DNA from: Eledone cirrhosa
Taxonomy: Eukaryota
DNA: 64,000 nucleotides
Direction: 5' to 3'
Assembly: GCA_964016885.1 (NCBI GenBank)
Contig: OZ024745.1
Coordinates: forward strand, 84,692,001-84,756,000
Shown: in pieces, positions 1 through 26,300 of the stretch
Numbering within the stretch: the stretch's first letter is position 1
How the letters are laid out: each line of letters opens with the position of its first letter
Position numbers and translations under genes: made by a program
Notes under the pieces: generated by a model
Databases searched by the model: none
What the model was told of the DNA's origin: nothing
What the model saw: only the letters and a program-made list of their open reading frames with translations

Positions 1-3000
1 TTCTTTTGAATTTGCCACTGACCAAGTAGGCAGTGAATTTTTTCAATGTCCTGGAATTTAGTCCCTGCTCGCTTTTTTCCATCCACTGAATTATTTTTAT
101 AGAAGTTCCCTGTGTCCACTCATTGCCTGAGTGCTTAGCTGAGAATAGAATCCCCGATGACGTAAGGATTCTCTATGGGTACGTTACGTAACCATATTAA
201 TTCCCTTACAGAAAATAATTAATTGGCTTGAAATATAAGTAAGTAAATTTTCATAATTTTCTTATTTTACGGCTTTCATATAATTGTTCTGCATCCCATT
301 GCATAGAACCTCAAAGTTACTAAGACAAAACATATATATTTGCTAGCATATGTATACATCCGTATACATATGTTGGCAGATATACTAATTCTTTATAATT
401 ATCTCCAAATTATTTGTTGAGAAAAACTTGCCGAAATTACTACTATGGTTCATGGTAGTAGTTAGGCTCTTGTCTTATTAGCACCCCACTCTCACTGATT
501 AACCTCAGTGTCACGTGATTGATTCTTTTGAATTTGCCACTGACCAAGTAGGCAGTGAATTTTTTCAATGTCCTGGAATTTAGTCCCCGCTCGCTTTTTT
601 CAATCCACTGAATTATTTTTATATAAGTTCCCTGTGTCCACGCATTGCCTGAGTGCTTAGCTGAGAATAGACTCCCCAATGACGTAAGGATTCTCTATGG
701 GTACGTTACGTAACCATATTAATTCCCTTACAGAAACTAATTAATTGGCTTGAAATATAAGTAAGTAAATTTTCATAATTTTCTTATTTTACGGCTTTCA
801 TATAATTGTTCTGCATCCCATTGCATAGAACCTCAAAGTTACTAAGACAAAACATATATATTTGCTAGCATATGTATGCATCCGTATACATATGTTGGTA
901 GATATACTAATTCTTTATATTTATCTCCAAATTATTTGTTGAGAAAAACTTGCCGAAATTACTACTATGGTTCATGGTAGTAGTTAGGCTCTTGTCTTAT
1001 TAGCACTCCACTCCCCACTGTTTAACCTCAGTTTCACGTGATTGATTCTTTTGAATTTGCCACTGACCAGGTACGCAGTGAATTTTTTCAATGTCCTAGA
1101 ATTTAATCCCCGCTCGCTTTTTTCCATCCACTGAATTATTTTTATATAAGTTCCCTGTGTCCACGCATTGCCTGAGTGCTTAGCTGAAAATAGACTTCCT
1201 GATGACGTAAGGATTCTCTATGGGTACGTTACGTAACCATATTTATTCCCTTACAGACACTAATTAGTTGGAGTGAAATATTAGTAATAAGTTAATTTTC
1301 ATAATTTTCTTATTTTACGTCTTTCATATAATTGTTCTGCATCCCATTGCATAGAACCACAAAGTTACTAAGACAAAACATATATATTTGCTAGCATAGG
1401 TATGCATCTGTATACATATGTTGGTAGATATACTAATTCTTTATATATTTATCTCCAAATTATTTCTTGAGCAAAACTTGCCGAAATTACTACTATGGTT
1501 GATGGTGGTAGTTAGGGTCTTGTCTTATTAGCACTCCACTCCTCACAGATTAACCTCAGTGTCACGTGATTGATTCTTTTGAATTTGCCACTGACCAAGT
1601 AGGCAGTGAATTTTTTCAATGTCCTAGAATTTAGTCCCCGCTCACTTTTTTCCATCCACTGAATTATTTTCATATAAGTTCCCTGTGTCCACGCATTGCC
1701 TGAGTGCTTAGCTGAGAATAGACTCCCCGATGACGTAAGGATTCTCTATGGGTACGTTACGTAACCATATTAATTCCCTTACAGAAACTAATTATTTGGA
1801 GTGAAATACAAGTAAGTAAGTTAATCTTCATAATTTTCTTATTTTAAGTCTTTCATATAATTGTTCTGCATCCCATTGCATAGAACCACAAAGTTACTAA
1901 GACAAAACATATATATTTGCTAGCATAGGTATGCATCTGTATACATATGTTGGTAGTTATACTAATTCTTTATATTTTTATCTCCAAATTATTTGTTGAG
2001 CAAAACTTGCCGAAATTACTACTATGGTTCATGGTGGTAGTTAGGGTCTTGTCTTATTAGCACTCCACTCCTCACTGATTAACCTCAGTGTCACGTGATT
2101 GATTCTTTTGAATTTGCCACTGACCAAGTAGGCAGTGAATTTTTTCAATGTCCTGGATTTAGTCCCCGCTCGCTTTTTCCATCCACTGAATTATTTTTAT
2201 ATAAGTTCCCTGTGTCCACGCATTGCCTGGGTGCTTAGCTGAGAATAGACTCCCTGATGACGTAAGGATTCTCTATGGGTACGTTACGTAACCATATTTA
2301 TTCCCTTACAGAAACTAATTATTTGGAGTGAAATACAAGTAAGTAAGTTAATCTTCATAATTTTCTTATTTTAAGTCTTTCATATAATTGTTCTGCATCC
2401 CATTGCATAGAACCACAAAGTTACTAAGACAAAACATATATATTTGCTAGCATAGGTATGCATCTGTATACATATGTTGGTAGTTATACTAATTCTTTAT
2501 ATTTTTATCTCCAAATTATTTGTTGAGCAAAACTTGCCGAAATTACTACTATGGTTCATGGTGGTAGTTAGGGTCTTGTCTTATTAGCACTCCACTCCTC
2601 ACTGATTAACCTCAGTGTCACGTGATTGATTCTTTTGAATTTGCCACTGACCAAGTAGGCAGTGAATTTTTTCAATGTCCTGGATTTAGTCCCCGCTCGC
2701 TTTTTCCATCCACTGAATTATTTTTATATAAGTTCCCTGTGTCCACGCATTGCCTGGGTGCTTAGCTGAGAATAGACTTCCTGATGACGTAAGGATTCTC
2801 TATGGGAACGTTACGTAACCATATTTATTCCCTTACAGACACTAATTAGTTGGAGTGAAATATTAGTAAGTAAGTTAATTTTCATAATTTTCTTATTTTA
2901 CGGCTTTCATATAATTGTTCTGCATCCCATTGCATAGAACCACAAAGTTACTAAGACAAAACATATATATTTGCTAGCATATGTATGCATCCGTATACAT

Positions 3001-4347
3001 ATGTTGGCAGATATACTAATTCTTTATATTATCTCCAAATTATTTGTTGAGAAAAACTTGACGAAATTACTACTATGGTTCATGGTAGCAGTTAGGCTCT
3101 TGTCTTATTAGCACTCCACTCTCACTGATTAACCTCAGTGTCACGTGATTGATTCTTTTGAATTTGCCACTGACCAAGTAGGCGGTGAATTTTTTCAATG
3201 TCCTGGAATTTAGTCCCCGCTCGCTTTTTTCCATCCACTGAATTATTTTTATATAAGTTCCCTGTGTCCACGCATTGCCTGAGTGCTTAGCTGAGAATAG
3301 ACTCCCCGATGACGTAAGGATTCTCTATGGGTACGTTACGTAACCATATTAATTCCGTTACAGAAACTAATTAATTGGCTTGAAATATAAGTAAGTAAAT
3401 TTTCATAATTTTCTTATTTTACGGCTTTCATATAATTGTTCTGCATCCCATTGCATAGAACCTCAAAGTTACTAAGACAAAACATATATATTTGCTAGCA
3501 TATGTATGCATCCGTATACATATGTTGGCAGATATACTAATTCTTTATATTAACTCCAAATTATTTGTTGAGAAAAACTTGCCGAAATTACTACTATGGT
3601 TCATGGTAGTAGTTAGGCTCTTGTCTTATTAGCACTCCACTCTCACTGATTAACCTCAGTGTCACGTGATTGATTCTTTTGAATTTGTCACTGACCAAGT
3701 AGGCAGTGAATTATTTCAATGTCCTGGAATTTAGTCCCTGCTCGCTTTTTTCCATCCACTGAATTATTTTTATATAAGTTCCCTGTGTCCACGTATTGCC
3801 TGGGTGCTTAGCTCAGAATAGACTTCCTAATGACGTAAGGATTCTCTATGGGTACGTTACGTAACCATATTTATTCCCTTACAGACACTAATTAGTTGGA
3901 GTGAAATATTAGTAATTAAGTTAATTTTCATAATTTTCTTATTTTACGGCTATCATATAATTGTTCTGCATCCCATTGCATAGAACCACAACGTTACTAA
4001 GACAAAACATATATATTTGCTAGCATATGTATGCATCCGTATACATATGTTGGCAGATATACTTATTCTTTATATTTACCTCCAAATTATTTGTTGAGAA
4101 AAACTTGCCGAAATTACTACTATGGTTCATGGTAGTAGTTAGGCTCTTGTCTTATTAGCACTCCACTCTCACTGATTAACCTCAGTGTCACGTGATTGAT
4201 TCTTTTGAATTTGCCACTGACCAAGTAGGGAGTGAATTTTTTCAATGTCCTGGAATTTAGTCCCCGCTCTCTTTTTTCCATCCACTGAATTATTTTTATA
4301 TAAGTTCCCTGTGTCCACGCATTGCCTGGGTGCTTAGATGAGAATAG

Positions 4348-4428
4348 ACTCCCTGATGACGTAAGGATTCTCTATGGGTACGTTACGTAACCATATTTAT
4401 TCCCTTACAGAAACTAATTAGTTGGAGT
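4348..4428 (+). ncRNA. Type I hammerhead ribozyme motif inside the satellite-1 monomer (representative intact copy)
   Basis: Stem I ACTCC/GGAGT. Core CTGATGA at 4353-4359. Stem II GTAAGG/CCTTAC encloses TATGG-G-TACG-tta-CGTA-A-CCATA. GAAA at 4410-4413. Palindromic stem III ACTAATTAGT and a GUU cleavage triplet. Stem II is closed by a C.A mismatch. Confidence 0.75.
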
Positions 4429-7400
4429 GGAATTTTAGTAAGTAAGTTAATTTTCATAATTTTGTTATTTTACGTCTTTCATATAATTGTTCTGCATCCC
4501 ATTGCATAGAACCACAAAGTTACTAAGACAAAACATATATATTTGCTAGCATAGGTATGCATCTGTATACATATGTTGGTAGATATACTAATTCTTTATA
4601 TTTTTATCTCCAAATTATTTGTTGAGCAAAACTTGCCGAAATTACTACTATGGTTCATGGTGGTAGTTAGGGTCTTGTCTTATTAGCACTCCACTCTCAC
4701 TGATTAACCTCAGTGTCACGTGATTGATTCTTTTGAATTTGCCACTGACCAAGTAGGCAGTGAATTATTTCAATGTCCTGGAATTTAGTCCCTGCTCGCT
4801 TTCTTCCATCCACTGAATTATTTTTATATAAGTTCCCTGTGTCCACGTATTGCCTGGGTGCTTAGCTCAGAATAGACTTCCTAATGACGTAAGGATTCTC
4901 TATGGGTACGTTACGTAACACAATTTATTCCCTTACAGACACTAATTAGTTGGAGTGAAATATTAGTAAGTAAGTTAATTTTCATAATTTTCTTATTTTA
5001 CGGCTATCATATAATTGTTCTGCATCCCATTGCATAGAACCACAACGTTACTAAGACAAAACATATATATTTGCTAGCATATGTATGCATCCGTATACAT
5101 ATGTTGGCAGATATACTTATTCTTTATATTTACCTCCAAATTATTTGTTGAGAAAAACTTGCCGAAATTACTACTATGGTTCATGGTAGTAGTTAGGCTC
5201 TTGTCTTATTAGCACTCCACTCTCACTGATTAACCTCAGTGTCACGTGATTGATTCTTTTGAATTTGCCACTGACCAAGTAGGGAGTGAATTTTTTCAAT
5301 GTCCTGGAATTTAGTCCCCGCTCTCTTTTTTCCATCCACTGAATTATTTTTATATAAGTTCCCTGTGTCCACGCATTGCCTGGGTGCTTAGATGAGAATA
5401 GACTCCCAGATGACGTAAGGATTCTCTATGGGTACGTTACGTAACCATATTTATTCCCTTACAGAAACTAATTAGTTGGAGTGGAATTTTAGTAAGTAAG
5501 TTAATTTTCATAATTTTCTTATTTTACGTCTTTCATATAATTGTTCTGCATCCCCTTGCATAGAACCACAAAGTTACTAAGACGAAACATATATATTTGC
5601 TAGCATAGGTATGCATCTGAATACATATGTTGGTAGATATACTAATTCTTTATATTTATCTCCAAATTATTTGTTGAGAAAAACTTGCCGAAATTACTAC
5701 TATGGTTTATGGTAGTAGTTAGGCTCTTGTCTTATTAGCAATCCACTCCCCACTGTTTAACCTCCGTTTCACGTGATTGATTCTTTTGAATTTGCCACTG
5801 ACCAGGTACGCAGTGAATTTTTTCAATGTCCTAGAATTTAGTCCCCGCTCGCTTTTTTCCATCCACTGAATTATTTTTATATAAGTTCCCTGTGTCCACG
5901 CATTGCCTGGGTGCTTAGCTGAGAATAGACTTCCTGATGACTTAAGGATTCTCTATGGGTACGTTACGTAACCATATTTATTCCCTTACAGACACTAATT
6001 AGTTGGAGTGAAATATTAGTAAGTAAGTTAATTTTCATAATTTTCTTATTTTACGTCTTTCATATAATTGTTCTGCATCCCATTGCATAGAACCACAAAG
6101 TTACTAAGACAAAACATATATATTTGCTAGCATAGGTATGCATCTGTATACATATGTTGGTAGATATACTAATTCTTTATATTTTTATCTCCAAATTATT
6201 TGTTGAGCAAAACTTGCCGAAATTACTACTATGGTTCATGGTGGTAGTTAGGGTCTTGTCTTATTAGCACTCCACTCCTCACTGATTAACCTCAGTGTCA
6301 CGTGATTGATTCTTTTGAATTTGCCACTGACCAAGTAGGCAGTGAATTTTTTCAATGTCCTCGATTTAGTCCCCGCTCGCTTTTTTCCATCCACTGAATT
6401 ATTTTTATATAAGTTCCCTGTGTCCACGCATTGCCTGGGTGCTTAGCTGAGAATAGACTCCCCGATGACGTAAGGATTCTCTATGGGTACGTTACGTAAC
6501 CATATTTATTCCCTTACAGACACTAATTAGTTGGAGTGAAATATTAGTAATTAAGTTAATTTTCATAATTTTCTTATTTTACGGCTATCATATAATTGTT
6601 CTGCATCCCATTGCATAGAACCACAACGTTACTAAGACAAAACATATATATTTGCTAGCATATGTATGCATCCGTATACATATGTTGGCAGATATACTTA
6701 TTCTTTATATTTATCTCCAAATTATTTGTTGAGAAAAACTTGCCGAAATTACTACTATGGTTCATGGTAGTAGTTAGGCTCTTGTCTTACTAGCACTCCA
6801 CTCTCACTGATTAACCTCAGTGTCACGTGATTGATTCTTTTGAATTTGCCACTGACCAAGTAGGGAGTGAATTTTTTCAATGTCCTGGAATTTAGTCCCC
6901 GCTCTCTTTTTTCCATCCACTGAATTATTTTTATATAAGTTCCCTGTGTCCACGCATTGCCTGGGTGCTTAGATGAGAATAGACTCCCTGATGACGTAAG
7001 GATTCTCTATGGGTACGTTACGTAACCATATTTATTCCCTTACAGAAACTAATTAGTTGGAGTGGAATTTTAGTAAGTAAGTTAATTTTCATAATTTTGT
7101 TATTTTACGTCTTTCATATAATTGTTCTGCATCCCATTGCATAGAACCACAAAGTTACTAAGACAAAACATATATATTTGCTAGCATAGGTATGCATCTG
7201 TATACATATGTTGGTAGATATACTAATTCTTTATATTTTTATCTCCAAATTATTTGTTGAGCAAAACTTGCCGAAATTACTACTATGGTTCATGGTGGTA
7301 GTTAGGGTCTTGTCTTATTAGCACTCCACTCCTCACTGATTAACCTCAGTGTCACGTGATTGATTCTTTTGAATTTGCCACTGACCAAGTAGGCAGTGAA

Positions 7401-10400
7401 TTTTTTCAATGTCCTGGATTTAGTCCCCGCTCGCTTTTTTCCATCCACTGAATTATTTTTATATAAGTTCCCTGTGTCCACGCATTGCCTGGGTGCTTAG
7501 CTGAGAATAGACTCCCCGATGACGTAAGGATTCTCTATGGGTACGTTACGTAACCATATTTATTCCCTTACAGACACTAATTAGTTGGAGTGAAATATTA
7601 GTAAGTAAGTTAATTTTCATAATTTTCTTATTTTACGGCTTTCATATAATTGTTCTGCATCCCATTGCATAGAACCACAAAGTTACTAAGACAAAACATA
7701 TATATTTGCTAGCATATGTATGCATCCGTATACATATGTTGGCAGATATACTAATTCTTTATATTATCTCCAAATTATTTGTTGAGAAAAACTTGACGAA
7801 ATTACTACTATGGTTCATGGTAGCAGTTAGGCTCTTGTCTTATTAGCACTCCACTCTCACTGATTAACCTCAGTGTCACGTGATTGATTCTTTTGAATTT
7901 GCCACTGACCAAGTAGGCAGTGAATTATTTCAATGTCCTGGAATTTAGTCCCTGCTCGCTTTCTTCCATCCACTGAATTATTTTTATATAAGTTCCCTGT
8001 GTCCACGTATTGCCTGGGTGCTTAGCTCAGAATAGACTTCCTAATGACGTAAGGATTCTCTATGGGTACGTTACGTAACCATATTTATTCCCTTACAGAC
8101 ACTAATTAGTTGGAGTGAAATATTAGTAAGTTAATTTTCATAATTTTCTTATTTTACGGCTATCATATAATTGTTCTGCATCCCATTGCATAGAACCACA
8201 ACGTTACTAAGACAAAACATATATATTTGCTAGCATATGTATGCATCCGTATACATATGTTGGCAGATATACTTATTCTTTATATTTACCTCCAAATTAT
8301 TTGTTGAGAAAAACTTGCCGAAATTACTACTATGGTTCATGGGAGTAGTTAGGCTCTTGTCTTATTAGCACTCCACTCTCACTGATTAACCTCAGTGTCA
8401 CGTGATTGATTCTTTTGAATTTGCCACTGACCAAGTAGGGAGTGAATTTTTTCAATGTCCTGGAATTTAGTCCCCGCTCTCTTTTTTCCATCCACTGAAT
8501 TATTTTTATATAAGTTCCCTGTGTCCACGCATTGCCTGGGTGCTTAGATGAGAATAGACTCCCTGATGACGTAAGGATTCTCTATGGGTACGTTACGTAA
8601 CCATATTTATTCCCTTACAGAAACTAATTAGTTGGAGTGGAATTTTAGTAAGTAAGTTAATTTTCATAATTTTCTTATTTTACGTCTTTCATATAATTGT
8701 TCTGCATCCCCTTGCATAGAACCACAAAGTTACTAAGACAAAACATATATATTTGCTAGCATAGGTATGCATCTGAATACATATGTTGGTAGATATACTA
8801 ATTCTTTATATTTATCTCCAAATTATTTGTTGAGAAAAACTTGCCGAAATTACTACTATGGTTTATGGTAGTAGTTAGGCTCTTGTCTTATTAGCAATCC
8901 ACTCCCCACTGTTTAACCTCAGTTTCACGTGATTGATTCTTTTGAATTTGCCACTGACCAGGTACGCAGTGAATTTTTTCAATGTCCTAGAATTTAGTCC
9001 CCGCTCGCTTTTTTCCATCCACTGAATTATTTTTATATAAGTTCCCTGTGTCCACGCATTGCCTGGGTGCTTAGCTGAGAATAGACTTCCTGATGACGTA
9101 AGGATTCTCTATGGGTACGTTACGTAACCATATTTATTCCCTTACAGACACTAATTAGTTGGAGTGAAATATTAGTAAGTAAGTTAATTTTCATAATTTT
9201 CTTATTTTACGTCTTTCATATAATTGTTCTGCATCCCATTGCATAGAACCACAAAGTTACTAAGACAAAACATATATATTTGCTAGCATAGGTATGCATC
9301 TGTATACATATGTTGGTAGATATACTAATTCTTTATATTTTTATCTCCAAATTATTTGTTGAGCAAAACTAGCCGAAATTACTACTATGGTTCATGGTGG
9401 TAGTTAGGGTCTTGTCTTATTAGCACTCCACTCCTCACTGATTAACCTCAGTGTCACGTGATTGATTCTTTTGAATTTGCCACTGACCAAGTAGGCAGTG
9501 AATTTTTTCAATGTCCTGGATTTAGTCCCCGCTCGCTTTTTTCCATCCACTGAATTATTTTTATATAAGTTCCCTGTGTCCACGCATTGCCTGGGTGCTT
9601 AGCTGAGAATAGACTCCCCGATGACGTAAGGATTCTCTATGGGTACGTTACGTAACCATATTTATTCCCTTACAGAAACTAATTAGTTGGAGTGGAATTT
9701 TAGTAAGTAAGTTAATTTTCATAATTTTCTTATTTTACGTCTTTCATATAATTGTTCTGCATCCCCTTGCATAGAACCACAAAGTTACTAAGACAAAACA
9801 TATATATTTGCTAGCATATGTATGCATCCGTATACATATGTTGGCAGATATACTAATTCTTTATATTTATCTCCAAATTGTTTGTTGAGAAAAACTTGCC
9901 GAAATTACTACTATGGTTCATGGTAGTAGTTAGGCTCTTGTCTTATTAGCACTCCACTTTCACTGATTAACCTAAGTGTCACGTGATTGATTCTTTTGAA
10001 TTTGCCACTGACCAAGTAGGCGGTGAATTTTTTCAATGTCCTGGAATTTAGTCACCGCTCGCTTTTTTCCATCCACTGAATTATTTTTATATAAGTTCCC
10101 TGTGTCCACGCATTGCCTGAGTGCTTAGCTGAGGATAGACTCCCCGATGACGTAAGGATTCTCTATGGGTACGTTACGTAACCATATTAATTCCCTTACA
10201 GAAACTAATTAATTGGCTTGAAATATAAGTAAGTAAATTTTCATAATTTTCTTATTTTACGGCTTTCATATAATTGTTCTGCATCCCATTGCATAGAACC
10301 TCAAAGTTACTAAGACAAAACATATATATTTGCTAGCATATGTATGCATCCGTATACATATGTTGGCAGATATAATAATTCTTTATATTAACTCCAAATT

Positions 10401-12062
10401 ATTTGTTGAGAAAAACTTGCCGAAATTACTACTATGGTTCATGGTAGTAGTTAGGCTCTTGTCTTATTAGCACTCCACTCTCACTGATTAACCTCAGTGT
10501 CACGTGATTGATTCTTTTGAATTTGCCACTGACCAAGTAGGCAGTGAATTATTTCAATGTCCTGGAATTTAGTCCCTGCTCGCTTTTTTCCATCCACTGA
10601 ATTATTTTTATATAAGTTCCCTGTGTCCACGTATTGCCTGGGTGCTTAGCTCAGAATAGACTTCCTGATGACGTAAGGATTCTCTATGGGTACGTTACGT
10701 AACCATATTTATTCCCTTACAGACACTAATTAGTTGGAGTGAAATATTAGTAAGTAAGTTAATTTTCAGAACTTTCTTATTTTACGTCTTTCATATAATT
10801 GTTCTGCATCCCATTGCATAGAACCACAAAGTTACTAAGACAAAACATATATATTTGCTAGCATAGGTATGCATCTGTATACATATGTTGGTAGATATAC
10901 TAATTCTTTATATTTTTATCTCCAAATTATTTGTTGAGCAAAACTTGCCGAAATTACTACTATGGTTCATGGTGGTAGTTAGGGTCTTGTCTTATTAGCA
11001 CTCCACTCCTCACTGATTAACCTCAGTGTCACGTGATTGATTCTTTTGAATTTGCCACTGACCAAGTAGGCAGTGAATTTTTTCAATGTCCTGGATTTAG
11101 TCCCCGCTCGCTTTTTTCCATCCACTCACAGAATTATTTTTATATAAGTTCCCTGTGTCCACGCATTGCCTGGGTGCTTAGCTGAGAATAGACTCCCTGA
11201 TGACGTAAGGATTCTCTATGGGAACGTTACGTAACCATATTTATTCCCTTACAGACACTAATTAGTTGGAGTGAAATATTAGTAAGTAAGTTAATTTTCA
11301 TAATTTTCTTATTTTACGGCTTTCATATAATTGTTCTGCATCCCATTGCATAGAACCACAAAGTTACTAAGACAAAACATATATATTTGCTAGCATATGT
11401 ATGCATCCGTATACATATGTTGGCAGATATACTAATTCTTTATATTTATCTCCAAATTATTTGTTGAGAAAAACTTGACGAAATTACTACTATGGTTCAT
11501 GGTAGCAGTTAGGCTCTTGTCTTATTAGCACTCCACTCTCACTGATTAACCTCAGTGTCACGTGATTGATTCTTTTGAATTTGCCACTGACCAAGTAGGC
11601 GGTGAATTTTTTCAATGTCCTGGAATTTAGTCCCCGCACGCTTTTTTCCATCCACTGAATTATTTTTATATAAGTTCCCTGTGTCCACGCATTGCCTGAG
11701 TGCTTAGCTGAGAATAGACTCCCCGATGACGTAAGGATTCTCTATGGGTACGTTACGTAACCATATTAATTCCGTTACAGAAACTAATTAATTGGCTTGA
11801 AATATAAGTAAGTAAATTTTCATAATTTTCTTATTTTACGGCTTTCATATAATTGTTCTGCATCCCATTGCATAGAACCTCAAAGTCACTAAGACAAAAC
11901 ATATATATTTGCTAGCATATGTATGCATCCGTATACATATGTTGGCAGATATACTAATTCTTTATATTAACTCCAAATTATTTGTTGAGAAAAACTTGCC
12001 GAAATTACTACTATGGTTCATGGTAGTAGTTAGGCTCTTGTCTTATTAGCACTCCACTCTCA

Positions 12063-15000
12063 CTGATTAACCTCAGTGTCACGTGATTGATTCTTTTGAA
12101 TTTGGCACTGACCAAGTAGGCAGTGAATTATTTCAATGTCCTGGAATTCAGTCCCTGCTCGCTTTTTTCCATCCACTGAATTATTTTTATATAAGTTCCC
12201 TGTGTCCACGCATTGCCTGGGTGCTTAGCTGAGAATAGACTCCCTGATGACGTAAGGATTCTCTATGGGTACGTTACGTAACCATATTTATTCCCTTACA
12301 GAAACTAATTAGTTGGAGTGGAATTTTAGTAAGTAAGTTAATTTTCATAATTTTCTTATTTTACGTCTTTCATATAATTGTTCTGCATCCCCTTGCATAG
12401 AACCACAAAGTTACTAAGACAAAACATATATATTTGCTAGCATAGGTATGCATCTGAATACATATGTTGGTAGATATACTAATTCTTTATATTTATCTCC
12501 AAATTATTTGTTGAGAAAAACTTGCCGAAATTACTACTATGGTTCATGGTAGTAGTTAGGCTCTTGTCTTATTAGCACTCCACTCTCACTGATTAACCTC
12601 AGTGTCACGTGATTGATTCTTTTGAATTTGGCACTGACCAGGTACGCAGTGAATTTTTTCAATGTCCTAGAATTTAGTCCCCGCTCGCTTTTTTCCATCC
12701 ACTGAATTATTTTTATATAAGTTCCCTGTGTCCACGCATTGCCTGGGTGCTTAGCTGAGAATAGACTTCCTGATGACGTAAGGATTCTCTATGGGTACGT
12801 TACGTAACCATATTTATTCCCTTACAGACACTAATTAGTAGGAGTGAAATATTAGTAAGTAAGTTAATTTTCATAATTTTGTTATTTTACGTCTTTCATA
12901 TAATTGTTCTGCATCCCATTGCATAGAACCACAAAGTTACTAAGACAAAACATATATATTTGCTAGCATAGGTATGCATCTGTATACATATGTTGGTAGA
13001 TATACTAATTCTTTATATTTTTATCTCCAAATTATTTGTTGAGCAAAACTTGCCGAAATTACTACTATGGTTCATGGTGGTAGTTAGGGTCTTGTCTTAT
13101 TAGCACTCCACTCCTCACTGATTAACCTCAGTGTCACGTGATTGATTCTTTTGAATTTGCCACTGACCAAGTAGGCAGTGAATTTTTTCAATGTCCTGGA
13201 TTTAGTCCCCGCTCGCTTTTTTCCATCCACTGAATTATTTTTATATAAGTTCCCTGTGTCCACGTATTGCCTGGGTGCTTAGCTGAGAATAGACTTCCTA
13301 ATGACGTAAGGATTCTCTATGGGTACGTTACGTAACCATATTAATTCCCTTACAGAAACTAATTATTTGGAGTGAAATATATGTAAGTAAGTTAATTTAC
13401 ATAATTTTCTTATTTTACGTCTTTCATATAATTGTTCTGCATCACCTTGCATAGAACCACAAAGTTACTAAGACAAAACATATATATTTGCTAGCATATG
13501 TATGCATCCGTATACATATGTTGGCAGATATACTAATTCTTTATATTTAACTCCAAATTGTTTGTTGAGAAAAACTTGCCGAAATTACTACTATGGTTCA
13601 TGGTAGTAGTTAGGCTCTTGTCTTATTAGCACTCCACTCTCACTGATTAACCTCAGTGTCACGTGATTGATTCTTTTGAATTTGCCACTGACCAAGTAGG
13701 CAGTGAATTATTTCAATGTCCTGGAATTTAGTCCCTGCTCGCTTTTTTCCATCCACTGAATTATTTTTATATAAGTTCCCTGTGTCCACGTATTGCCTGG
13801 GTGCTTAGCTCAGAATAGACTTCCTGATGACGTAAGGATTCTCTATGGGTACGTTACGTAACCATATTTATTCCCTTACAGACACTAATTAGTTGGAGTG
13901 AAATATTAGTAAGTAAGTTAATTTTCATAATTTTCTTATTTTAAGTCTTTCATATAATTGTTCTGCATCCCATTGCATAGAACCACAAAGTTACTAAGAC
14001 AAAACATATATATTTGCTAGCATAGGTATGCATCTGTATACATATGCTGGTAGATATACTAATTCTTTATATTTTTATCTCCAAATTATTTGTTGAGCAA
14101 AACTTGCCGAAATTACTACTATGGTTCATGGTGGTAGTTAGGGTCTTGTCTTATTAGCACTCCACTCCTCACTGATTAACCTCAGTGTCACGTGATTGAT
14201 TCTTTTGAATTTGCCACTGACCAAGTAGGTAGTGAATTTTTTCAATGTCCTGGATTTAGTCCCCGCTCGCTTTTTTCCATCCACTCACTGAATTATTTTT
14301 ATATAAGTTCCCTGTGTCCACGCATTGCCTGGGTGCTTAGCTGAGAATAGACTCCCTGATGACGTAAGGATTCTCTATGGGTACGTTACGTAACCATATT
14401 TATTCCCTTACAGAAACTAATTAGTTGGAGTGGAATTTTAGTAAGTAAGTTAATTTTCATAATTTTCTTATTTTACGTCTTTCATATAATTGTTCTGCAT
14501 CCCCTTGCATAGAACCACAAAGTTACTAAGACAAAACATATATATTTGCTAGCATAGGTATGCATCTGTATACATATGTTGGTAGATATACTAATTCTTT
14601 ATATTTACCTCCAAATTATTTGTTGAGAAAAACTTTCCGAAATTACTACTATGGTTGATGGTAGTAGTTAGGCTCTTGTCTTATTAGCACTCCACTCTCA
14701 CTGATTAACCTCAGTGTCACGTGATTGATTCTTTTGAATTTGGCACTGACCAAGTAGGCAGTGAATTATTTCAATGTCCTGGAATTCAGTCCCTGCTCGC
14801 TTTTTTCCATCCACTGAATTATTTTTATATAAGTTCCCTGTGTCCACGCATTGCCTGGGTGCTTAGCTGAGAATAGACTCCCTGATGACGTAAGGATTCT
14901 CTATGGGTACGTTACGTAACCATATTTATTCCCTTACAGAAACTAATTAGTTGGAGTGGAATTTTAGTAAGTAAGTTAATTTTCATAATTTTCTTATTTT

Positions 15001-17340
15001 ACGTCTTTCATATAATTGTTCTGCATCCCCTTGCATAGAACCACAAAGTTACTAAGACAAAACATATATATTTGCTAGCATAGGTATGCATCTGAATACA
15101 TATGTTGGTAGATATACTAATTCTTTATATTTATCTCCAAATTATTTGTTGAGAAAAACTTGCCGAAATTACTACTATGGTTCATGGTAGTAGTTAGGCT
15201 CTTGTCTTATTAGCACTCCACTCTCACTGATTAACCTCAGTGTCACGTGATTGATTCTTTTGAATTTGGCACTGACCAGGTACGCAGTGAATTTTTTCAA
15301 TGTCCTAGAATTTAGTCCCCGCTCGCTTTTTTCCATCCACTGAATTATTTTTATATAAGTTCCCTGTGTCCACGCATTGCCTGGGTGCTTAGCTGAGAAT
15401 AGACTTCCTGATGACGTAAGGATTCTCTATGGGTACGTTACGTAACCATATTTATTCCCTTACAGACACTAATTAGTAGGAGTGAAATATTAGTAAGTAA
15501 GTTAATTTTCATAATTTTGTTATTTTACGTCTTTCATATAATTGTTCTGCATCCCATTGCATAGAACCACAAAGTTACTAAGACAAAACATATATATTTG
15601 CTAGCATAGGTATGCATCTGTATACATATGTTGGTAGATATACTAATTCTTTATATTTTTATCTCCAAATTATTTGTTGAGCAAAACTTGCCGAAATTAC
15701 TACTATGGTTCATGGTGGTAGTTAGGGTCTTGTCTTATTAGCACTCCACTCCTCACTGATTAACCTCAGTGTCACGTGATTGATTCTTTTGAATTTGCCA
15801 CTGACCAAGTAGGCAGTGAATTTTTTCAATGTCCTGGATTTAGTCCCCGCTCGCTTTTTTCCATCCACTGAATTATTTTTATATAAGTTCCCTGTGTCCA
15901 CGTATTGCCTGGGTGCTTAGCTGAGAATAGACTTCCTAATGACGTAAGGATTCTCTATGGGTACGTTACGTAACCATATTAATTCCCTTACAGAAACTAA
16001 TTATTTGGAGTGAAATATATGTAAGTAAGTTAATTTACATAATTTTCTTATTTTACGTCTTTCATATAATTGTTCTGCATCACCTTGCATAGAACCACAA
16101 AGTTACTAAGACAAAACATATATATTTGCTAGCATATGTATGCATCCGTATACATATGTTGGCAGATATACTAATTCTTTATATTTAACTCCAAATTGTT
16201 TGTTGAGAAAAACTTGCCGAAATTACTACTATGGTTCATGGTAGTAGTTAGGCTCTTGTCTTATTAGCACTCCACTCTCACTGATTAACCTCAGTGTCAC
16301 GTGATTGATTCTTTTGAATTTGCCACTGACCAAGTAGGCAGTGAATTATTTCAATGTCCTGGAATTTAGTCCCTGCTCGCTTTTTTCCATCCACTGAATT
16401 ATTTTTATATAAGTTCCCTGTGTCCACGTATTGCCTGGGTGCTTAGCTCAGAATAGACTTCCTGATGACGTAAGGATTCTCTATGGGTACGTTACGTAAC
16501 CATATTTATTCCCTTACAGACACTAATTAGTTGGAGTGAAATATTAGCAAGTAAGTTAATTTTCATAATTTTCTTATTTTAAGTCTTTCATATAATTGTT
16601 CTGCATCCCATTGCATAGAACCACAAAGTTACTAAGACAAAACATATATATTTGCTAGCATAGGTATGCATCTGTATACATATGCTGGTAGATATACTAA
16701 TTCTTTATATTTTTATCTCCAAATTATTTGTTGAGCAAAACTTGCCGAAATTACTACTATGGTTCATGGTGGTAGTTAGGGTCTTGTCTTATTAGCACTC
16801 CACTCCTCACTGATTAACCTCAGTGTCACGTGATTGATTCTTTTGAATTTGCCACTGACCAAGTAGGTAGTGAATTTTTTCAATGTCCTGGATTTAGTCC
16901 CCGCTCGCTTTTTTCCATCCACTCACTGAATTATTTTTATATAAGTTCCCTGTGTCCACGCATTGCCTGGGTGCTTAGCTGAGAATAGACTCCCTGATGA
17001 CGTAAGGATTCTCTATGGGTACGTTACGTAACCATATTTATTCCCTTACAGAAACTAATTAGTTGGAGTGGAATTTTAGTAAGTAAGTTAATTTTCATAA
17101 TTTTCTTATTTTACGTCTTTCATATAATTGTTCTGCATCCCCTTGCATAGAACCACAAAGTTACTAAGACAAAACATATATATTTGCTAGCATAGGTATG
17201 CATCTGTATACATATGTTGGTAGATATACTAATTCTTTATATTTACCTCCAAATTATTTGTTGAGAAAAACTTTCCGAAATTACTACTATGGTTGATGGT
17301 AGTAGTTAGGCTCTTGTCTTATTAGCACTCCACTCCCCAC
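12063..17340 (+). repeat. 5-monomer higher-order duplication (2638-bp period) within satellite 1
   Basis: Rare variants recur 2638 bp apart: tttggcactg, ggaattcagt, tatgctggta (14043/16681), ccactcactg (14281/16919) and ctttccga. Confidence 0.9.
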
Positions 17341-20300
17341 CGTTTAACCTCAATTTCACGTGATTGATTCTTTTGAATTTGCCACTGACCAGGTACGCAG
17401 TGAATTTTTTCAATGTCCTAGAATTTAGTCCCCGCTCGCTTTTTTCAATCCACTGAATTATTTTTATATAAGTTCCCTGTGTCCACGCATTGCCTGAGTG
17501 CTTAGCTGAGAATAGATGCCCCGACGACGTAAGGATTCTGTATGGGTACGTTACGTAACCATATTAATTCCCTTACAGAAACTAATTATTTGGAGTGAAA
17601 TACAAGTAAGTAAGTTAATTTTCATAATTTTCTTATTTTACGTCTTTCATATAATTGTTCTGCATCCCCTTGCATAGAACCACAAAGTTACTAAGACAAA
17701 ACATATATATTTGCTAGCATAGGTATGCATCTGTATACATATGTTGGTAGATATACTAATTCTTTATATTTATCTCCAAATTATTTGTTGAGAAAAACTT
17801 GCCGAAATTACTACTATGGTTCATGGTAGTAGTTAGGCTCTTGTCTTATTAGCACTCCACTCCCCACTGTTTAACCTCAGTTTCACATGATTGATTCTTT
17901 TGAATTTGCCACTGACCAGGTACGCAGTGAATTTTTTCAATGTCCTAGAATTTAGTCCCCGCTCGCTTTTTTCCATCCACTGAATTATTTTTATATAAGT
18001 TCCCTGTGTCCACGCATTGCCTGAGTGCTTAGCTGAGAATAGACTTCCTGATGACGTAAGGATTCTCTATGGGTACGTTACGTAACCATATTTATTCCCT
18101 TACAGACACTAATTAGTTGGAGTGAAATATTAGTAAGTAAGTTAATTTTCATAATTTTCTTATTTTACGTCTTTCATATAATTGTTCTGCATCCCATTGC
18201 ATAGAACCACAAAGTTACTAAGACAAAACATATATATTTGCTAGCATAGGTATGCATCTGTATACATATGTTGGTAGATATACTAATTCTTTATATTTTT
18301 ATCTCCAAATTATTTGTTGAGCAAAACTTGCCGAAATTACTACTATGGTTCATGGTGGTAGTTAGGGTCTTCTCTTATTAGCACTCCACTCCTCACTGAT
18401 TAACTTCAGTGTCACGTGATTGATTCTTTTGAATTTGCCACTGACCAAGTAGGCAGTGAATTTTTTTAATGTCCTGGAATTTAGTCCCTGCTCGCTTTTT
18501 TCCATCCACAGAATTATTATTATATAAGTTCCCTGTGTCCACGCATTGCCTGGGTGCTTAGCTGAGAATAGACTCCCTGATGACGTAAGGATTCTCTATG
18601 GGTACGTTACGTAACCATATTAATTCCCTTACAGAAACTAATTATTTGGAGTGAAATATATGTAAGTAAGTTAATTTCATAATTTTCTTATTTTACGTCT
18701 TTCATATAATTGTTCTGCATCACCTTGCATAGAACCACAAAGTTACTAAGACAAAACATATATATTTGCTAGCATATGTATGCATCCGTATACATATGTT
18801 GGCAGATATACTAATTCTTTATATTTAACTCCAAATTGTTTGTTGAGAAAAACTTACCGAAATTACTACTATGGTTCATGGTAGTAGTTAGGCTCTTGTC
18901 CTATTAGCACTCCACTCTCACTGATTAACCTCAGTGTCACGTGATTGATTCTTTTGAATTTGCCACTGACCAAGTAGGCAGTGAATTTTTTCAATGTCCT
19001 GGAATTTAGTCCCCGCTCGCTTTTTTCCATCCACTGAATTATTTTTATATAAGTTCCCTGTGTCCACGCATTGCCTGGGTGCTTAGCTGAGAATAGACTC
19101 GCTGATGACGTAAGGATTCTCTATGGGTACGTTACGTAACCATATTTATTCCCTTACAGAAACTAATTAGTGGGAGTGAAATATTAGTAAGTTAATTTTC
19201 ATAATTTTCTTATTTTACATCTTTCATATAATTGTTCTGCATCCCCTTGCATAGAACCACAAAGTTACTAAGACAAAACATATATATTTGCTAGCATAGG
19301 TATGCATCTGTATACATATGTTGGTAGATATACTAATTCTTTATATTTATCTCCAAATTATTTGTTGAGAAAAACTTGCCGAAATTACTACTATGGTTCA
19401 TGGTAGTAGTTAGGCTCTTGTCTTATTAGCAATCCACTCCCCACTGTTTAACCTCAGTTTCACGTGATTGATTCTTTTGAATTTGCCACTGACCAGGTAC
19501 GCAGTGAATTTTTTCAATGTCCTAGAATTTAGACCCGCTCGCTTTTTTCCATCCACTGAATTATTTTTATATAAGTTCCCTGTGTCCACGCATTGCCTGA
19601 GTGCTTAGCTGAGAATAGACTCGCCGATGACGTAAGGATTCTCTATGGGTACGTTACGTAACCATATTTATTCCCTTACAGACACTAATTAGTTGGAGTG
19701 AAATATTAGTAAGTAAGTTAATTTTCATAATTTTCTTATTTTACGTCTTTCATATAATTGTTCTGCATCCCCTTGCATAGAACCACGAAGTTACGAAGAC
19801 AAAACATATATATTTGCTAGCATAGGTATGCATCTGTATACATATTTTGGTAGATATACTAATTCTTTGTATTTATCTCCGAATTATTTGTTGAGAAAAA
19901 TTTGCCGAAATTACTACTATGGTTCATGGTGGTAGTTAGGGTCTTGTCTTATTTGCACTACACTCTCACTGATTAACCTCAGTTTCACGTGATTGATTCT
20001 TTGGAATTTGCCACTGACCAGGTACGCAGTGAATTTTTTCAATGTCCTAGAATTTAGTCCCCGCTCGCTTTTTTCAATCCACTGAATTATTTTTATATAA
20101 GTTCCCTGTGTCCACGCATTGCCTGAGTGCTTAGCTGAGAATAGACTCCCCGACGACGTAAGGTTTCTCTATGGGTACGTTACGTAACCATATTAATTCC
20201 CTTACAGAAACTAATTAGTGGGAGTGAAATATTAGTAAGTAAGTTAATTTTCATAATTTTCTTATTTTACATCTTTCATATAATTGTTCTGCATCCCCTT

Positions 20301-23300
20301 GCATAGAACCACAAAGTTACTAAGACAAAACATATATATTTGCTAGCATATGTATGCATCCGTATACATATGTTGGCAGATATACTAATTCTTTATATTT
20401 ATCTCCAAATTGTTTGTTGAGAAAAACTTGCCGAAATTTCTACTATGGTTCATGGTAGTAGTTAGACTCTTGTCTTATTAGCACTCCACTCTCACTGATT
20501 AACCTCAGTGTCACGTGATTGATTCTTTTGAATTTGCCACTGACCAAGTAGGCAGTGAATTTTTTCAATGTCCTGGAATTTAGTTCCCGCTCGCTTTTTT
20601 CCATCCACTGAATTATTTTTATATAAGTTCCCTGTGTCCACGCATTGCCTGGGTGCTTAGATGAGAATAGACTCCCTGATGACGTAAGGATTCTCTATGG
20701 GTACGTTACGTAACCATATTTATTCCCTTACAGAAAATAATTAGTTGGAGTGGAATTTTAGTAAGTAAGTTAATTTTTATAATTTTCTTATTTTACGTCT
20801 TTCATATAATTATTCTGCATCCCCTTGCATAGAACCACAAAGTTACTAAGACAAAACATATATATTTGCTAGCATAGGTATGCATCTGTATACATATGTT
20901 GGTAGATATACTAATTCTTTATATTTATCTCCAAATTATTTGTTGAGCAAAACTTGTCGAAATTACTACTATGGTTCATGGTAGTAGTTAGGCTCTTGTC
21001 TTATTAGCACTCCATTCCCCACTGTTTAACCTCAGTTTCACGTGATTGATTCTTTTGAATTTGCCACTGACCAGGTACGCAGTGAATTTTTTCAATGTCC
21101 TTGAATTTAGACCCGCTCGCTTTTTTCCATCCACTGAATTATTTTTATATAAGTTCCCTGTGTCCACGCATTGCCTGAGTGCTTAGCTGAGAATAGACTC
21201 CCCGATGACGTAAGGATTCTCTATCGGTACGTTACGTAGCCATATTAATTACCTTACAGAAACTAATTATTTGGAGTGAAATATAAGTAAGTAAGTTAAT
21301 TTTCATAATTTTCTTATTTTACGGCTTTCATATAATTGTTCTGCATCCCATTGCATAGAACCACAAAGTTACTAAGACAAAACATATATATTTGCTAGCA
21401 TATGTATGCATCCGTATACATATGTTGGCAGATATACTAATTCTTTATATTTACCTCCAAATTATTTGTTGAGAAAAACTTGCCGAAATTACTACTATGG
21501 TTCATGGTAGTAGTTAGGCTCTTGTCTTATTAGCACTCCACTCTCACTGATTAACCTCAGTGTCATGTGATTGATTCTTTTGAATTTGCCACTGACCAAG
21601 TAGGGAGTGAATTTTTTCAATGTCCTGGAATTTAGTCCCCGCTCTCTTTTCTCCATCCACCGAATTATTTTTATATAAGTTCCCTGTGTCCACGCATTGC
21701 CTGGGTGCTTAGATGAGAATAGACTCCCTGATGACGTAAGGATTCTCTATGGGTACGTTACGTAACCTTATTTATTCCCTTACAGAAACTTATTAGTTGG
21801 AGTGGAATTTTAGTAAGTAAGTTAATTTTCATAATTTTCTTATTTTACGTCTTTCATATAATTGTTCTGCATCCCTTGCATAGAACCACAAAGTTACTAA
21901 GACAAAACATATATATTTGCTAGCATATGTATGCATCTGTATACATATGTTGGTAGATATACTAATTCTTTATATTAACTCCAAATTATCTGTTGAGAAA
22001 AACTTGCCGAAATTACTACTATGGTTCATGGTAGTAGTTAGGCTCTTGTCTTATTAGCACTCCACTCCCCACTGTTTAACCTCAGTTTCACGTGATTGAT
22101 TCTTTTGAATTTGCCACTGACCAGGTACGCAGTGAATTTTTTCAATGTCCTAGAATTTAGTCCCCGCTCGCGTTTTTCCATCCACTGAATTATTTTTATA
22201 TAAGTTCCCTGTGTCCACGCATTGCCTGAGTGCTTAGCTGAGAATAGACTTCCTGATGACGTAAGGATTCTCTATGGGTACGTTACGTAACCATATTAAT
22301 TCCCTTACAGAAACTAATTAATTGGCTTGAAATATAAATCAGTAAGTAAATTTTCATAATTTTCTTATTTTACGGCTTTCATATAATTGTTCTGCATCCC
22401 ATTGTATAGAACCACAAAGTTACTAAGACAAAACATATATATTTGCTAGCATATGTATGCATCCGTATACATATGTTGGCAGATATACTAATTCTTTATA
22501 TTTATCTCCAAATTATTTTTGAGAAAAACTTGCCGAAATTACTACTATGGTTCATGGTAGTAGTTAGGCTCTTGTCTTATTAGCACTCCACTCTCACTGA
22601 TTAACCTCAGTGTCACGTGATTGATTCTTTTGAATTTACCACTGACCAAGTAGGCAGTGAATTTTTTCAATGTCCTGGAATTTAGTCCCTGCTCGCTTTT
22701 TTCCATCCACTGAATTATTTTATATAAGTTCCCTGTGTCCACGTATTGCCTGGGTGCTTAGCTCAGAATAGACATCCTGATGACGTAAGGATTCTCTATG
22801 GGTACGTTACGTAACCATATTTATTCCCTTACAGAAACTAATTAGTTGGAGTGGAATTTTAGTAAGTAAGTTAATTTCATAATTTTCTTATTTTACGTCT
22901 TTCATATAATTGTTCTGCATCCCATTGCACAGAACCACAAAGTTACTAACACAAAACATATATATTTGCTCGCATATGTATGCATCCGTATACATATGTT
23001 GGCAGATATACTAATTCTTTATATTTATCTCCAAATTATTTGTTGAGAAAAACTTGCCGAAATTACTACTATGGTTCATGGTAGTAGTTAGGCTCTTGTC
23101 TTATTAGCACTCCACTCTCACTGATTAACCTCAGTTTCACGTGATTGATTCTTTTGAATTTGCCACTGACCAGGTACGCAGTGAATTTTTTCAATGTCCT
23201 AGAATTTAGTCCCCGCTCGCTTTTTTCAATCCACTGAATTATTTTTATATAAGTTCCCTGTGTCCACGCATTGCCTGAGTGCTTAGCTGAGAATAGACTT

Positions 23301-26300
23301 CCTGATGACGTAAGGATTCTCTATCGGTACGTTACGTAACCATATTTATTCCCTTACAGACACTAATTATTTGGAGTGAAATATAAGTAAGTAAGTTAAT
23401 TTTCATAATTTTCTTATTTTACGGCTTTCATATAATTGTTCTGCATCCCATTGCATAGAACCACAAAGTTACTAAGACAAAACATATATATTTGCTAGCA
23501 TATGTATGCATCCGTATACATATGTTGGCAGATATACTAATTCTTTATATTTATCTCCAAATTATTTGTTGACAAAAACTTGCCGAAATTACTACTATGG
23601 TTCATGGTAGCAGTTAGGCTCTTGTCTTATTAGCACTCCACTCTTACTGATTAACCTCAGTGTCACGTGATTGATTCTTTTGAATTTGCCACTGACCAAG
23701 CAGGCAGTGAATTTTTTCAATGTCCTGGAATTTAGTCCCCGCTCGCTTTTTTCCATTCACTGAATTATTTTTATATAAGTTCCCTGTGTCCACGCATTGC
23801 CTGGGTGCTTAGATGAGAATAGACTCCCTGATGACGTAAGGATTCTCTATGGGTACGTTACGTAACCATATTTATTCCCTTACAGAAACTAATTAGTTGG
23901 AGTGGAATTTTAGTAAGTAAGTTAATTTTTATAATTTTATTATTTTACGTCTTTCATATAATTGTTCTGCATCCCCTTGCATAGAACCACAAAGTTACTA
24001 AGACAAAACATATATATTTGCTAGCATAGGTATGCATCTGTATACATATGTTGGTAGATATACTAATTCTTTATATTTATCTCCAAATTATTTGTTGAGA
24101 AAAACTTGCCGAAATTACTACTATGGTTCATGGTAGTAGTTAGGCTCTTGTCTTATTAGCACTCCACTCCCCACTGTTTAACCTCAGTTTCACGTGATTG
24201 ATTCTTTTGAATTTGCCACTGACCAGGTACGCAGTGAATTTTTTCAATGTCCTAGAATTTAGACCCGCTCGCTTTTTTCCATCCACTGAATTATTTTTAT
24301 ATAAGTTCCCTGTGTCCACGCATTGCCTGAGTGCTTAGCTGTGAATAGACTCCCCGATGACGTAAGGATTCTCTATGGGTATGTTACGTAACCATATTTA
24401 TTCCCTTACAGACACTAATTAGTTGGAGTGAAATATTAGTAAGTAAGTTAATTTTCATAATTTTCTTATTTTACGTCTTTCATATAATTGTTCTGCATCC
24501 CCTTGCATAGAACCACAAAGTTACGAAGACAAAACATATATATTTGCTAGCATAGGTATGCATCTGTATACATATGTTGGTAGATATACTAATTCTTTGT
24601 ATTTATCTCCGAATTATTTGTTGAGAAAAACTTGCCGAAATTACTACTATGGTTCATGGTGGTAGTTAGGGTCTTGTCTTATTAGCACTCCACTCTCACT
24701 GATTAACCTCAGTTTCACGTGATTGATTCTTTTGAATTTGCCACTGACCAGGTACTCAGTGAATTTTTTCAATGTCCTAGAATTTAGTCCCCGCTCGCTT
24801 TTTTCCATCCACTGAATTATTTTTATATAAGTTCCCTGTGTCCACGCATTGCCTGAGTGCTTAGCTGAGAATAGACTTCCTGATGACGTAAGGATTCTCT
24901 CGGTACGTTACGTAACCATATTTATTCCCTTACAGACACTAATTAGTTGGAGTGAAATATTAGTAAGTAAGTTAATTTTCATAATTTTCTTATTTTACGG
25001 CTTTCATATGATTGTTCTGCATCCCATTGCATAGAACCACAAAGTTACTAAGACAAAACATATATATTTGCTAGCATATGTATGCATCCGTATACATATG
25101 TTGGCAGATATACTAATTCTTTATATTTATCTCCAAATTATTTGTTGAGAAAAACTTGCCGAAATTACTACTATGGTTCATGGTAGTAGTTAGGCTCTTG
25201 TCTTATTAGCACTCCACTCTCACTGATTAACCTCAGTTTCACGTGATTGATTCTTTTGAATTTGCCACTGACCAGGTACGCAGTGAATTTTTTCAATGTC
25301 CTAGAATTTAGTCCCCGCTCGCTTTTTTCAATCCACTGAATTATTTTTATATAAGTTCCCTGTGTCCACGCATTGCCTGAGTGCTTAGCTGAGAATAGAC
25401 TCCCCGACGACGTAAGGTTTCTCTATGGGTACGTTACGTAACCATATTAATTCCCTTACAGAAACTAATTAGTGGGAGTGAAATATTAGTAAGTAAGTTA
25501 ATTTTCATAATTTTCTTATTTTACATCTTTCATATAATTGTTCTGCATCACCTTGCATTGAACCACAAAGTTACTAAGACAAAACATATATATTTGCTAG
25601 CATATGTATGCATCCGTATACATATGTTGGCAGATATACTAATTCTTTATATTTAACTCCAAATTGTTTGTTGAGAAAAACTTGCCGAAATTACTACTAT
25701 GGTTCATGGTAGTAGTTAGGCTCTTGTCCTATTAGCACTCCACTCTCACTGATTAACCTCAGTGTCACGTGATTGATTCTTTTGAATTTGCCACTGACCA
25801 AGTAGGCAGTGAATTTTTTCAATGTCCTGGAATTTAGTCCCCGCTCGCTTTTTTCCATCCACTGAATTATTTTTATATAAGTTCCCTGTGTCCACGCATT
25901 GCCTGGGTGCTTAGCTGAGAATAGACTCGCTGATGACGTAAGGATTCTCTATGGGTACGTTACGTAACCATATTTATTCCCTTACAGAAACTAATTAGTG
26001 GGAGTGAAATATTAGTAAGTTAATTTTCATAATTTTCTTATTTTACATCTTTCATATAATTGTTCTGCATCCCCTTGCATAGAACCACAAAGTTACTGAG
26101 ACAAAACATATATATTTGCTAGCATATGTATGCATCCGTATACATATGTTGGCAGATATACTAATTCTTTATATTTATCTCCAAATTGTTCGTTGAGAAA
26201 AACTTGCCGAAATTACTACTATGGTTCATGGTAGTAGTTAGGCTCTTGTCTTATTAGCACTCCACTCTCACTGATTAACCTCAGTGTCACGTGATTGATT

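What the first reader, a model, noticed from the sequence alone, without database searches (positions are those of the whole stretch)
2966..4140. The rest of the monomer is a strand-specific structured RNA (23-bp and 13-bp hairpins with G.U pairs only)
Seen: 2966-3015 TATATTTGCTAGCATATGTATGC-atcc-GTATACATATGTTGGCAGATATA forms 23 contiguous pairs, 4 of them G.U. 4112-4140 AATTACTACTATG-gtt-CATGGTAGTAGTT forms 13 pairs, 2 of them G.U. Smaller hairpins are CACTGA/TCAGTG, CACTG/CAGTG and GTTCT/AGAAC. Two common variants (ggca>ggta, ggtagtag>ggtggtag) convert Watson-Crick pairs to G.U and keep pairing. Inference: G.U without A.C points to selection on + strand RNA, the same strand as the hammerhead, rather than on DNA cruciforms. 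The 23-bp stem could be a Dicer, Drosha or ADAR substrate.
Basis: partly seen in the sequence, partly recalled or inferred. Interest (0 to 1): 0.75.

Follow-up and report, generated by a model that had tools for sequence, protein, structure and literature searches.

The report
Hammerhead retrozyme with selected RNA fold
These hairpins belong to a jumping non-coding element with a predicted self-cutting RNA motif, present in thousands of copies in this animal genome; paired changes across the copies show that the two long stems are kept as RNA on one strand, likely to help a Penelope-type enzyme copy the RNA back into DNA, while this particular 81-kb tandem array is decaying.

Summary
The two long hairpins are real and favour the + strand. 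They belong to a 526-bp unit that is also a dispersed family with a type I hammerhead (9,151 matches of this class). Copies are 5'-truncated, mostly back-to-back and end in (TA)n, as Penelope-like insertions do: a non-LTR retrozyme. Inherited changes keep pairing in 21 of 25 cases in the two long stems, against 33 of 72 copy-private changes. With sister families the long stem shows five doubly changed pairs and 122 G.U against 2 A.C cells. Insertions end at two fixed, predicted single-stranded sites on either side of the long stem, so I read the fold as a likely template scaffold for the reverse transcriptase. Drosha/Dicer geometry is not met; written-back ADAR edits were not seen. No RNA data. 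The scan had found other retrozyme families in this genome, not this one.

The parts
1..34565 (+). Tandem array of ~526-bp retrozyme units (65 full units in the window, mean identity 95%); continues upstream to G000:C5:84,645,783, about 81 kb or ~153 units; 3' end runs into (TA)n at the family's 'long' end point
   Evidence: one 10-kb stretch of the upstream part was not fetched, so continuity there is inferred
2966..3015 (+). Hairpin A (long stem), here in the array-specific unbroken form; same element at 4012-4061; mobile copies have a G.A mismatch and about 5 G.U
4112..4140 (+). Hairpin B (10-13 pairs), length and loop vary between families
3993..4159 (+).
4065..4074 (+). 'Long' 3' end point of insertions, just 3' of hairpin A; predicted unpaired (93rd percentile of 13-nt windows); likely priming site on (TA)n
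4170..4234 (+).
4186..4304 (+). Invariant TGTCACGTG block (4186-4194, E-box-like by recall) and a TATA-like run (4294-4304) upstream of the ribozyme: candidate internal promoter, untested
   Evidence: function inferred
4348..4428 (+). Type I minimal hammerhead: stem I ACTCC/GGAGT, core CTGATGA (4353-4359), long stem II with an unpaired C and A at its base, GAAA (4410-4413), palindromic stem III, predicted cut after GUU at 4423
   Evidence: no Rfam hammerhead match
4471..4485 (+). 'Short' 3' end point of insertions, about 61 nt after the predicted cut; most unpaired stretch of the predicted circle (99th percentile)
4489..4512 (+). Hairpin E, sequence conserved across families and predicted paired, but without compensatory support

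Best explanation
The hairpins are part of the + strand fold of a non-autonomous, hammerhead-bearing repeat (non-LTR retrozyme) whose two long stems and enclosing helix are conserved by pairing-preserving changes, likely because the folded RNA is the template that a Penelope-type reverse transcriptase copies into (TA)n sites. Shown: dispersed family, insertion anatomy, two fixed end points, covariation on + only, decay in this array. Inferred: transcription through tandem units; self-cleavage, probably as dimers through the palindromic stem III; circularisation; priming at two unpaired UA-rich sites that flank the domain holding hairpin E, one strand of helix G and hairpin A; G.U pairs as tolerated swaps within a helix selected for shape rather than sequence. 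One insertion at this locus later grew into an ~81-kb satellite by DNA-level amplification (inferred), where selection on the RNA has lapsed.
For: Dispersed: 3,614 candidates, 1,224 hammerheads with this stem II, 9,151 of the class, with stem II swapped in pairs between families. Of 100 sites, 68 have more than one arm and 62 are back-to-back; 142 of 181 arms end at one of two points; 126 of 181 have TA-rich 3' flanks. 41 of 43 classifiable two-arm sites have one short and one long end (11 more of the 54 had an end elsewhere). Tree of 79 copies: inherited changes keep a pair in 38 of 51 cases vs 76 of 181 private ones (p 6e-5); A+B 21 of 25 vs 33 of 72 (p 0.001); Watson-Crick to G.U vs to A.C is 19:7 inherited and 45:39 private. 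23 sequences with sister families: hairpin A 93.8% paired, 5 pairs changed on both sides, covariation above 500 of 500 shuffles and above all slid controls; G.U in 122 cells at 17 of 23 pairs, A.C in 2 cells. Both end points are unpaired in the predicted circle and in most of 9 sister units. The ribozyme matches the minimal hammerheads described for Penelope-like elements (PMC4209133).
Against: No RNA evidence of any kind here. No autonomous partner found: seven flanking stretches of Penelope-like fragments in the window show no convincing likeness. Substitution rate per site is not lower in stems than outside them (0.35 vs 0.37 inherited). Stem I has low pair probability in the predicted circle (0.14); the GUU cut site and the C.A at the base of stem II are atypical (recalled), and Rfam does not score the motif. 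The number of pairs with a double change (9) is reached by 69 of 500 shuffles, and related sequences can beat that shuffle control. Helices F and IIb were chosen after seeing their variation; A to E were pre-specified (23 of 33 vs 43 of 110, p 0.003). Most copies come from one stretch of contig C1 and were picked by hammerhead or hairpin patterns. Only 1 of 9 predicted frog retrozyme dimers cleaved in vitro (10.64898/2026.07.22.740005).
Confidence: 0.8

Rival explanations
1. The G.U pairs are a record of ADAR A-to-I edits in the stems, written back into DNA by reverse transcription, rather than tolerated swaps under selection.
Against: Changes shared by all copies at one site, where per-molecule edits should collect, show 1 A>G among 13 stem changes. 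In a young sister family (56 sites) one-site stem changes are 3 A>G and 3 T>C of 32. G.U pairs toggle both ways (to A-U and to G-C). No 5'-U neighbour preference beyond background.
Confidence: 0.1
2. The long stem is kept imperfect (G.U every few pairs plus a G.A) to stay folded while avoiding ADAR or other double-stranded-RNA sensors; this can hold together with the best explanation.
For: Longest pure Watson-Crick run in hairpin A is 3 to 7 pairs in all 21 dispersed copies of alignment A2, and 9 only in the array-specific form. G.U wobbles and G.A mismatches suppress bystander editing in engineered guides (PMC11994451, abstract only).
Against: No direct test; short runs are also expected from neutral wobble toggling in an AU-rich helix.
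Confidence: 0.25
3. Hairpin A is a small-RNA precursor (Drosha/Dicer substrate).
For: A 22-23 pair stem; weak likeness to AT-rich miRNA models (best 27 bits vs cut-off 81).
Against: 4-nt loop, no basal extension, sits inside a multibranch domain; both arms vary with compensation instead of one arm being fixed; Drosha and Dicer requirements (about 35 bp stem, larger loop, free ends) are recalled, not looked up.
Confidence: 0.05
4. The hairpins are DNA inverted repeats (cruciform or single-strand DNA hairpins) of a satellite, with no role as RNA.
For: DNA parameters also favour +. Inside the array variants ignore pairing and the ribozyme core decays. Two of three linked array-specific changes make the arms more complementary as DNA.
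Against: A cruciform is strand-symmetric, yet G.U exceeds A.C 122 to 2; the same strand carries a covarying hammerhead; insertions have retro-type anatomy. It may describe the present array, not the origin of the stems.
Confidence: 0.05

Closest known systems
Metazoan non-LTR retrozymes (coral, mussel, axolotl; PMC7229834, passages and Discussion read; 10.64898/2026.07.22.740005, parts 1-3 of 5 read)
   Same: Non-coding tandem unit with one type I hammerhead, low GC (35%), dispersed monomers to long multimers, predicted highly self-paired RNA; 526 bp lies within the reported 51-972 bp.
   Different: Minimal-type hammerhead with a ~50-nt stem II region; fixed short and long insertion ends; covariation outside the ribozyme shown here (I did not meet such an analysis in the passages read or in searches); expression and circles untested.
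Penelope-like elements, their pseudo-LTRs and minimal hammerheads (PMC8557442 and PMC3846280, passages; PMC4209133, part 1 of 4 and passages)
   Same: 5' truncation, partial tandems, inverted 5'-truncated partner copy, (TA)n targets, a tail at one end only; short helix I, long helix II with an unpaired 5' nucleotide, palindromic helix III.
   Different: No reading frame; tail of about 115-120 nt instead of the 30-40 bp described, and it holds the long stem; no sequence link to an autonomous element found.
Other retrozyme families noted by this scan in the same genome (310, 424, 465-468 bp units)
   Same: Back-to-back arms with two fixed ends in TA repeats, by their notes.

Membership tests
Metazoan non-LTR retrozyme | Type I hammerhead in each repeat unit | tested here: met
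   Core and three stems found; stem II covaries across families; intact in 35 of 39 unselected dispersed copies but only 15 of 65 array units
Metazoan non-LTR retrozyme | Short non-coding tandem units, dispersed in many copies | tested here: met
   ORFs were not listed for the array itself, non-coding status rests on the repeat's indels and AT-rich make-up
Metazoan non-LTR retrozyme | Highly self-paired RNA on the ribozyme strand | tested here: met
   Predicted fold and covariation; not probed
Metazoan non-LTR retrozyme | Self-cleavage and accumulation as linear and circular monomer RNA | not testable with these tools
   No RNA holder listed
Penelope-mobilised element | 5' truncation, partial tandem and inverted partner copy | tested here: met
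   62 of 68 multi-arm sites back-to-back; 74 of 181 arms longer than one unit
Penelope-mobilised element | Microsatellite target and one-sided tail | tested here: met
   126 of 181 TA-rich flanks; 41 of 43 one short plus one long end; tail longer than described
Penelope-mobilised element | Shared pseudo-LTR sequence with an autonomous element | tested here: inconclusive
   No likeness to the fragments in this window; the genome's autonomous families were not surveyed
Canonical pre-miRNA | About 35-bp stem, loop of 10 nt or so, single-stranded flanks (recalled) | tested here: not met
   22-23 pairs, 4-nt loop, inside a multibranch domain
Canonical pre-miRNA | Stacked 21-23 nt reads from one arm | not testable with these tools
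   no small-RNA run available
ADAR-edited retrotransposition template | A>G excess in stems among changes made before insertion | tested here: not met
   1 of 13; 3 A>G vs 3 T>C of 32 rare stem changes; a site-level A/G excess remains; power is modest

The most novel reading that the evidence does not exclude
The covarying domain (hairpin E, helix G, hairpins A and B) is the cis-acting handle for a Penelope reverse transcriptase: like a telomerase RNA it presents two unpaired UA-rich template sites, so one RNA primes both ends of a cut (TA)n target and yields the one-short, one-long, back-to-back insertion.
Probability: 0.35. Interest if true: 0.75.

Novelty: new member of a known kind. Interest (0 to 1): 0.42.

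Why it matters
How Penelope-type enzymes recognise RNA and make inverted, one-tailed insertions is open (PMC8557442 calls for an in vitro system), and retrozyme folds in the papers read are energy predictions. This family gives a covariation-backed structure outside the ribozyme and ties it to two fixed insertion ends, which names the stems and sites to mutate. It also shows that a retrozyme-derived satellite can lose its RNA constraints, so structure should be judged on dispersed copies. The class itself is known, and the scan has met it before in this genome.

Tried and rejected
Rfam: no match at gathering scores in the window; only sub-threshold AT-rich miRNA models in 3900-5100. Sequencing runs: no RNA holder listed; two contig runs of one sample laid on 3900-5100 only show the repeat's diversity. 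ADAR write-back: two direct tests negative. Autonomous partner: no likeness to Penelope-like fragments in the window; a search for the same stem III with a short stem II gave 29 matches that read as deletion forms of these families. Higher-order repeat in the array: at most a faint rise at lag 5 (95.9% vs about 95.2%). Rows dropped: from the 30 segments, four false matches, one truncated copy and four near-duplicates were left out of alignment A2 and two window units added (23 rows); the tree used 79 of 100 sites (400 or more columns); positions near indels, and homopolymers, were masked. Look-ups of earlier notes by sequence and by words found nothing. Literature searches listed no paper on cephalopod retrozymes or on covariation in retrozyme bodies; supplements were not read and may hold such families.

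Full report
1. Setting. Window 1-34565 is a tandem array of a ~526-bp unit: 65 full units, mean identity 95%. It runs into (TA)n at 34565 and starts about 46 kb upstream of the window, at G000:C5:84,645,783, about 81 kb in all; one 10-kb piece was not fetched.

2. The observation. Both long hairpins are as described and fold far better on + than on -. A whole unit has z -7.2 on + and -2.8 on -. The asymmetry survives removal of the long stem and the ribozyme (-5.0 vs -0.7) but is smaller for the whole consensus as a circle (-7.7 vs -5.9). The unbroken 23-pair form is not typical: 29 of 65 units have it, and its signature occurs 30 times in the genome, all in the 3' part of this array, against 271 matches for the form with a G.A mismatch. 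Among 14 common array variants at paired positions 4 keep or improve pairing and 10 break it, and the ribozyme core is intact in 15 of 65 units.

3. What the unit is. It is a dispersed family (3,614 candidates). Each unit carries a type I hammerhead on +: stem I ACTCC/GGAGT, CUGAUGA, a long stem II with an unpaired base on each side at its foot, GAAA, a palindromic stem III and a GUU cut site. Rfam does not score it, but it fits the minimal hammerheads described for Penelope-like elements (PMC4209133). A looser pattern finds 9,151 motifs of this class, with stem II exchanged in pairs between sister families. Of 100 insertion sites, 68 have several arms, 62 of them back-to-back; 142 of 181 arms end at one of two points, about 61 and 176-184 nt after the predicted cut, and 126 of 181 run into TA-rich sequence. 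Among 54 simple two-arm sites, 41 have one short and one long end, 2 have two long ends, none two short, and 11 have an end elsewhere. Sister families end at the same two points. Truncation, partial tandems, an inverted partner, (TA)n targets and a one-sided tail are the described marks of Penelope-like insertion (PMC8557442; PMC3846280). The array's own 3' end is the long end point, so it likely grew from one such insertion.

4. Is the fold selected? On a tree of 79 dispersed copies, changes inherited by three or more copies keep a canonical pair in 38 of 51 cases; copy-private changes, mostly neutral, in 76 of 181 (p 6e-5). For hairpins A and B it is 21 of 25 vs 33 of 72 (p 0.001); for C, D and E 2 of 8 vs 10 of 38. 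Watson-Crick pairs go to G.U rather than A.C 19:7 in inherited changes and 45:39 in private ones. Against: the per-site rate in stems is not reduced (0.35 vs 0.37), one subfamily of 17 carries an A.C in hairpin A, and recombination may inflate event counts. Within the family alone only 1 of 43 predicted pairs shows a double change. With sister families (23 rows) hairpin A is 93.8% paired with 5 doubly changed pairs; the covariation score beats 500 of 500 shuffles and all slid controls, though the count of doubly changed pairs does not (69 of 500). G.U fills 122 cells at 17 of 23 pairs and A.C 2 cells. A long-range helix (3993-4004 with 4148-4159) closes a domain around A and B and covaries too. 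Hairpins C and D are not conserved.

5. How it most likely works. Shown: the points above. Inferred from the known retrozyme cycle (PMC7229834 Discussion): transcription through tandem units, self-cleavage probably as dimers, circularisation, and copying by an autonomous Penelope-type enzyme. Specific to this family: the two end points lie in the 99th and 93rd percentile of unpaired 13-nt windows of the predicted circle and stay mostly unpaired in 9 sister units; both are UA-rich and could pair with a cut (TA)n target; the 115-120-nt interval between them holds hairpin E, one strand of helix G and hairpin A. I therefore read the stems as a likely scaffold that presents priming sites, and the G.U pairs as tolerated swaps in helices selected for shape. 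No partner element was found, although the window holds Penelope-like fragments.

6. ADAR, Dicer, Drosha. I noted the idea of written-back A-to-I edits before seeing a like claim for another family. Site-level data lean that way: 17 of 51 stem purines opposite U are A/G-polymorphic vs 7 of 91 loop A. Direct tests do not: 1 A>G among 13 stem changes shared by all copies at a site, and 3 A>G vs 3 T>C among 32 rare stem changes at 56 sites of a young sister family, where G.U toggles to both A-U and G-C. The stem might instead be kept imperfect to avoid editing (PMC11994451 abstract); untested. A 4-nt loop inside a multibranch domain does not fit a miRNA precursor (requirements recalled).

7. Verdict. 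A new member of a known class, the non-LTR retrozymes (10.64898/2026.07.22.740005). The added value is a covariation-backed fold tied to fixed insertion ends. The scan had already described other retrozyme families with like anatomy in this genome, but not this one. Interest 0.42.

Noticed in passing
window 1-34565: The array-specific haplotype with the perfected long stem goes with an intact ribozyme core more often (11 of 32 units) than the family-type haplotype (3 of 33; p 0.017, post hoc, units not independent). It is absent from the upstream part sampled in L072-L074. Unexplained: hairpin-templated DNA repair, or renewed selection on some array units.
   Followed up: partly
G000 C1, loci L147-L166, L179-L248: Several sister retrozyme families (521-571 bp) share the ribozyme class and end points; one is very young and has at least 2,564 copies of its stem II signature, with expanding A/T homopolymer hairpins.
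   Followed up: partly
window 4186-4194 and 4294-4304: An invariant TGTCACGTG block across sister families and a TATA-like run about 45 nt before the ribozyme; T runs of 5-6 on + argue against Pol III (recalled rule). Candidate internal Pol II promoter.
   Followed up: no
window 36061-38195: Truncated Penelope-like element with inverted arms ending in (TA)n, a CxxC-bearing frame (36801-37568, -) and its own minimal hammerhead at 36374 (-); one arm has a tail about 165 nt longer.
   Followed up: partly
window 45698-48200: Penelope-like element with a weak RVT_1 match (45941-46912, below cut-off), a hammerhead-like core at 47884 (+) and an inverted tail at its 5' side that resembles the tail of the element at 36 kb.
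   Followed up: partly
window 40910-43252 and 58498-59645: Two more broken Penelope-like frames; GIY-YIG match just under cut-off at 42875-43249.
   Followed up: no
window 56781 and 50447 (- strand): Two copies of a canonical-looking type I hammerhead of another repeat family, next to (TTTTTA)n arrays.
   Followed up: no
L074:3550-3770 and window 35075-35300, 35495-35730: The same ~230-bp repeat flanks both ends of the 81-kb array (one copy upstream, two downstream), seen by eye; not tested as a target duplication.
   Followed up: no
L032/L085 with L186/L187 (G000:C1:18,960,000-18,962,000): Copies of two different sister families sit together at one site, on opposite strands.
   Followed up: no
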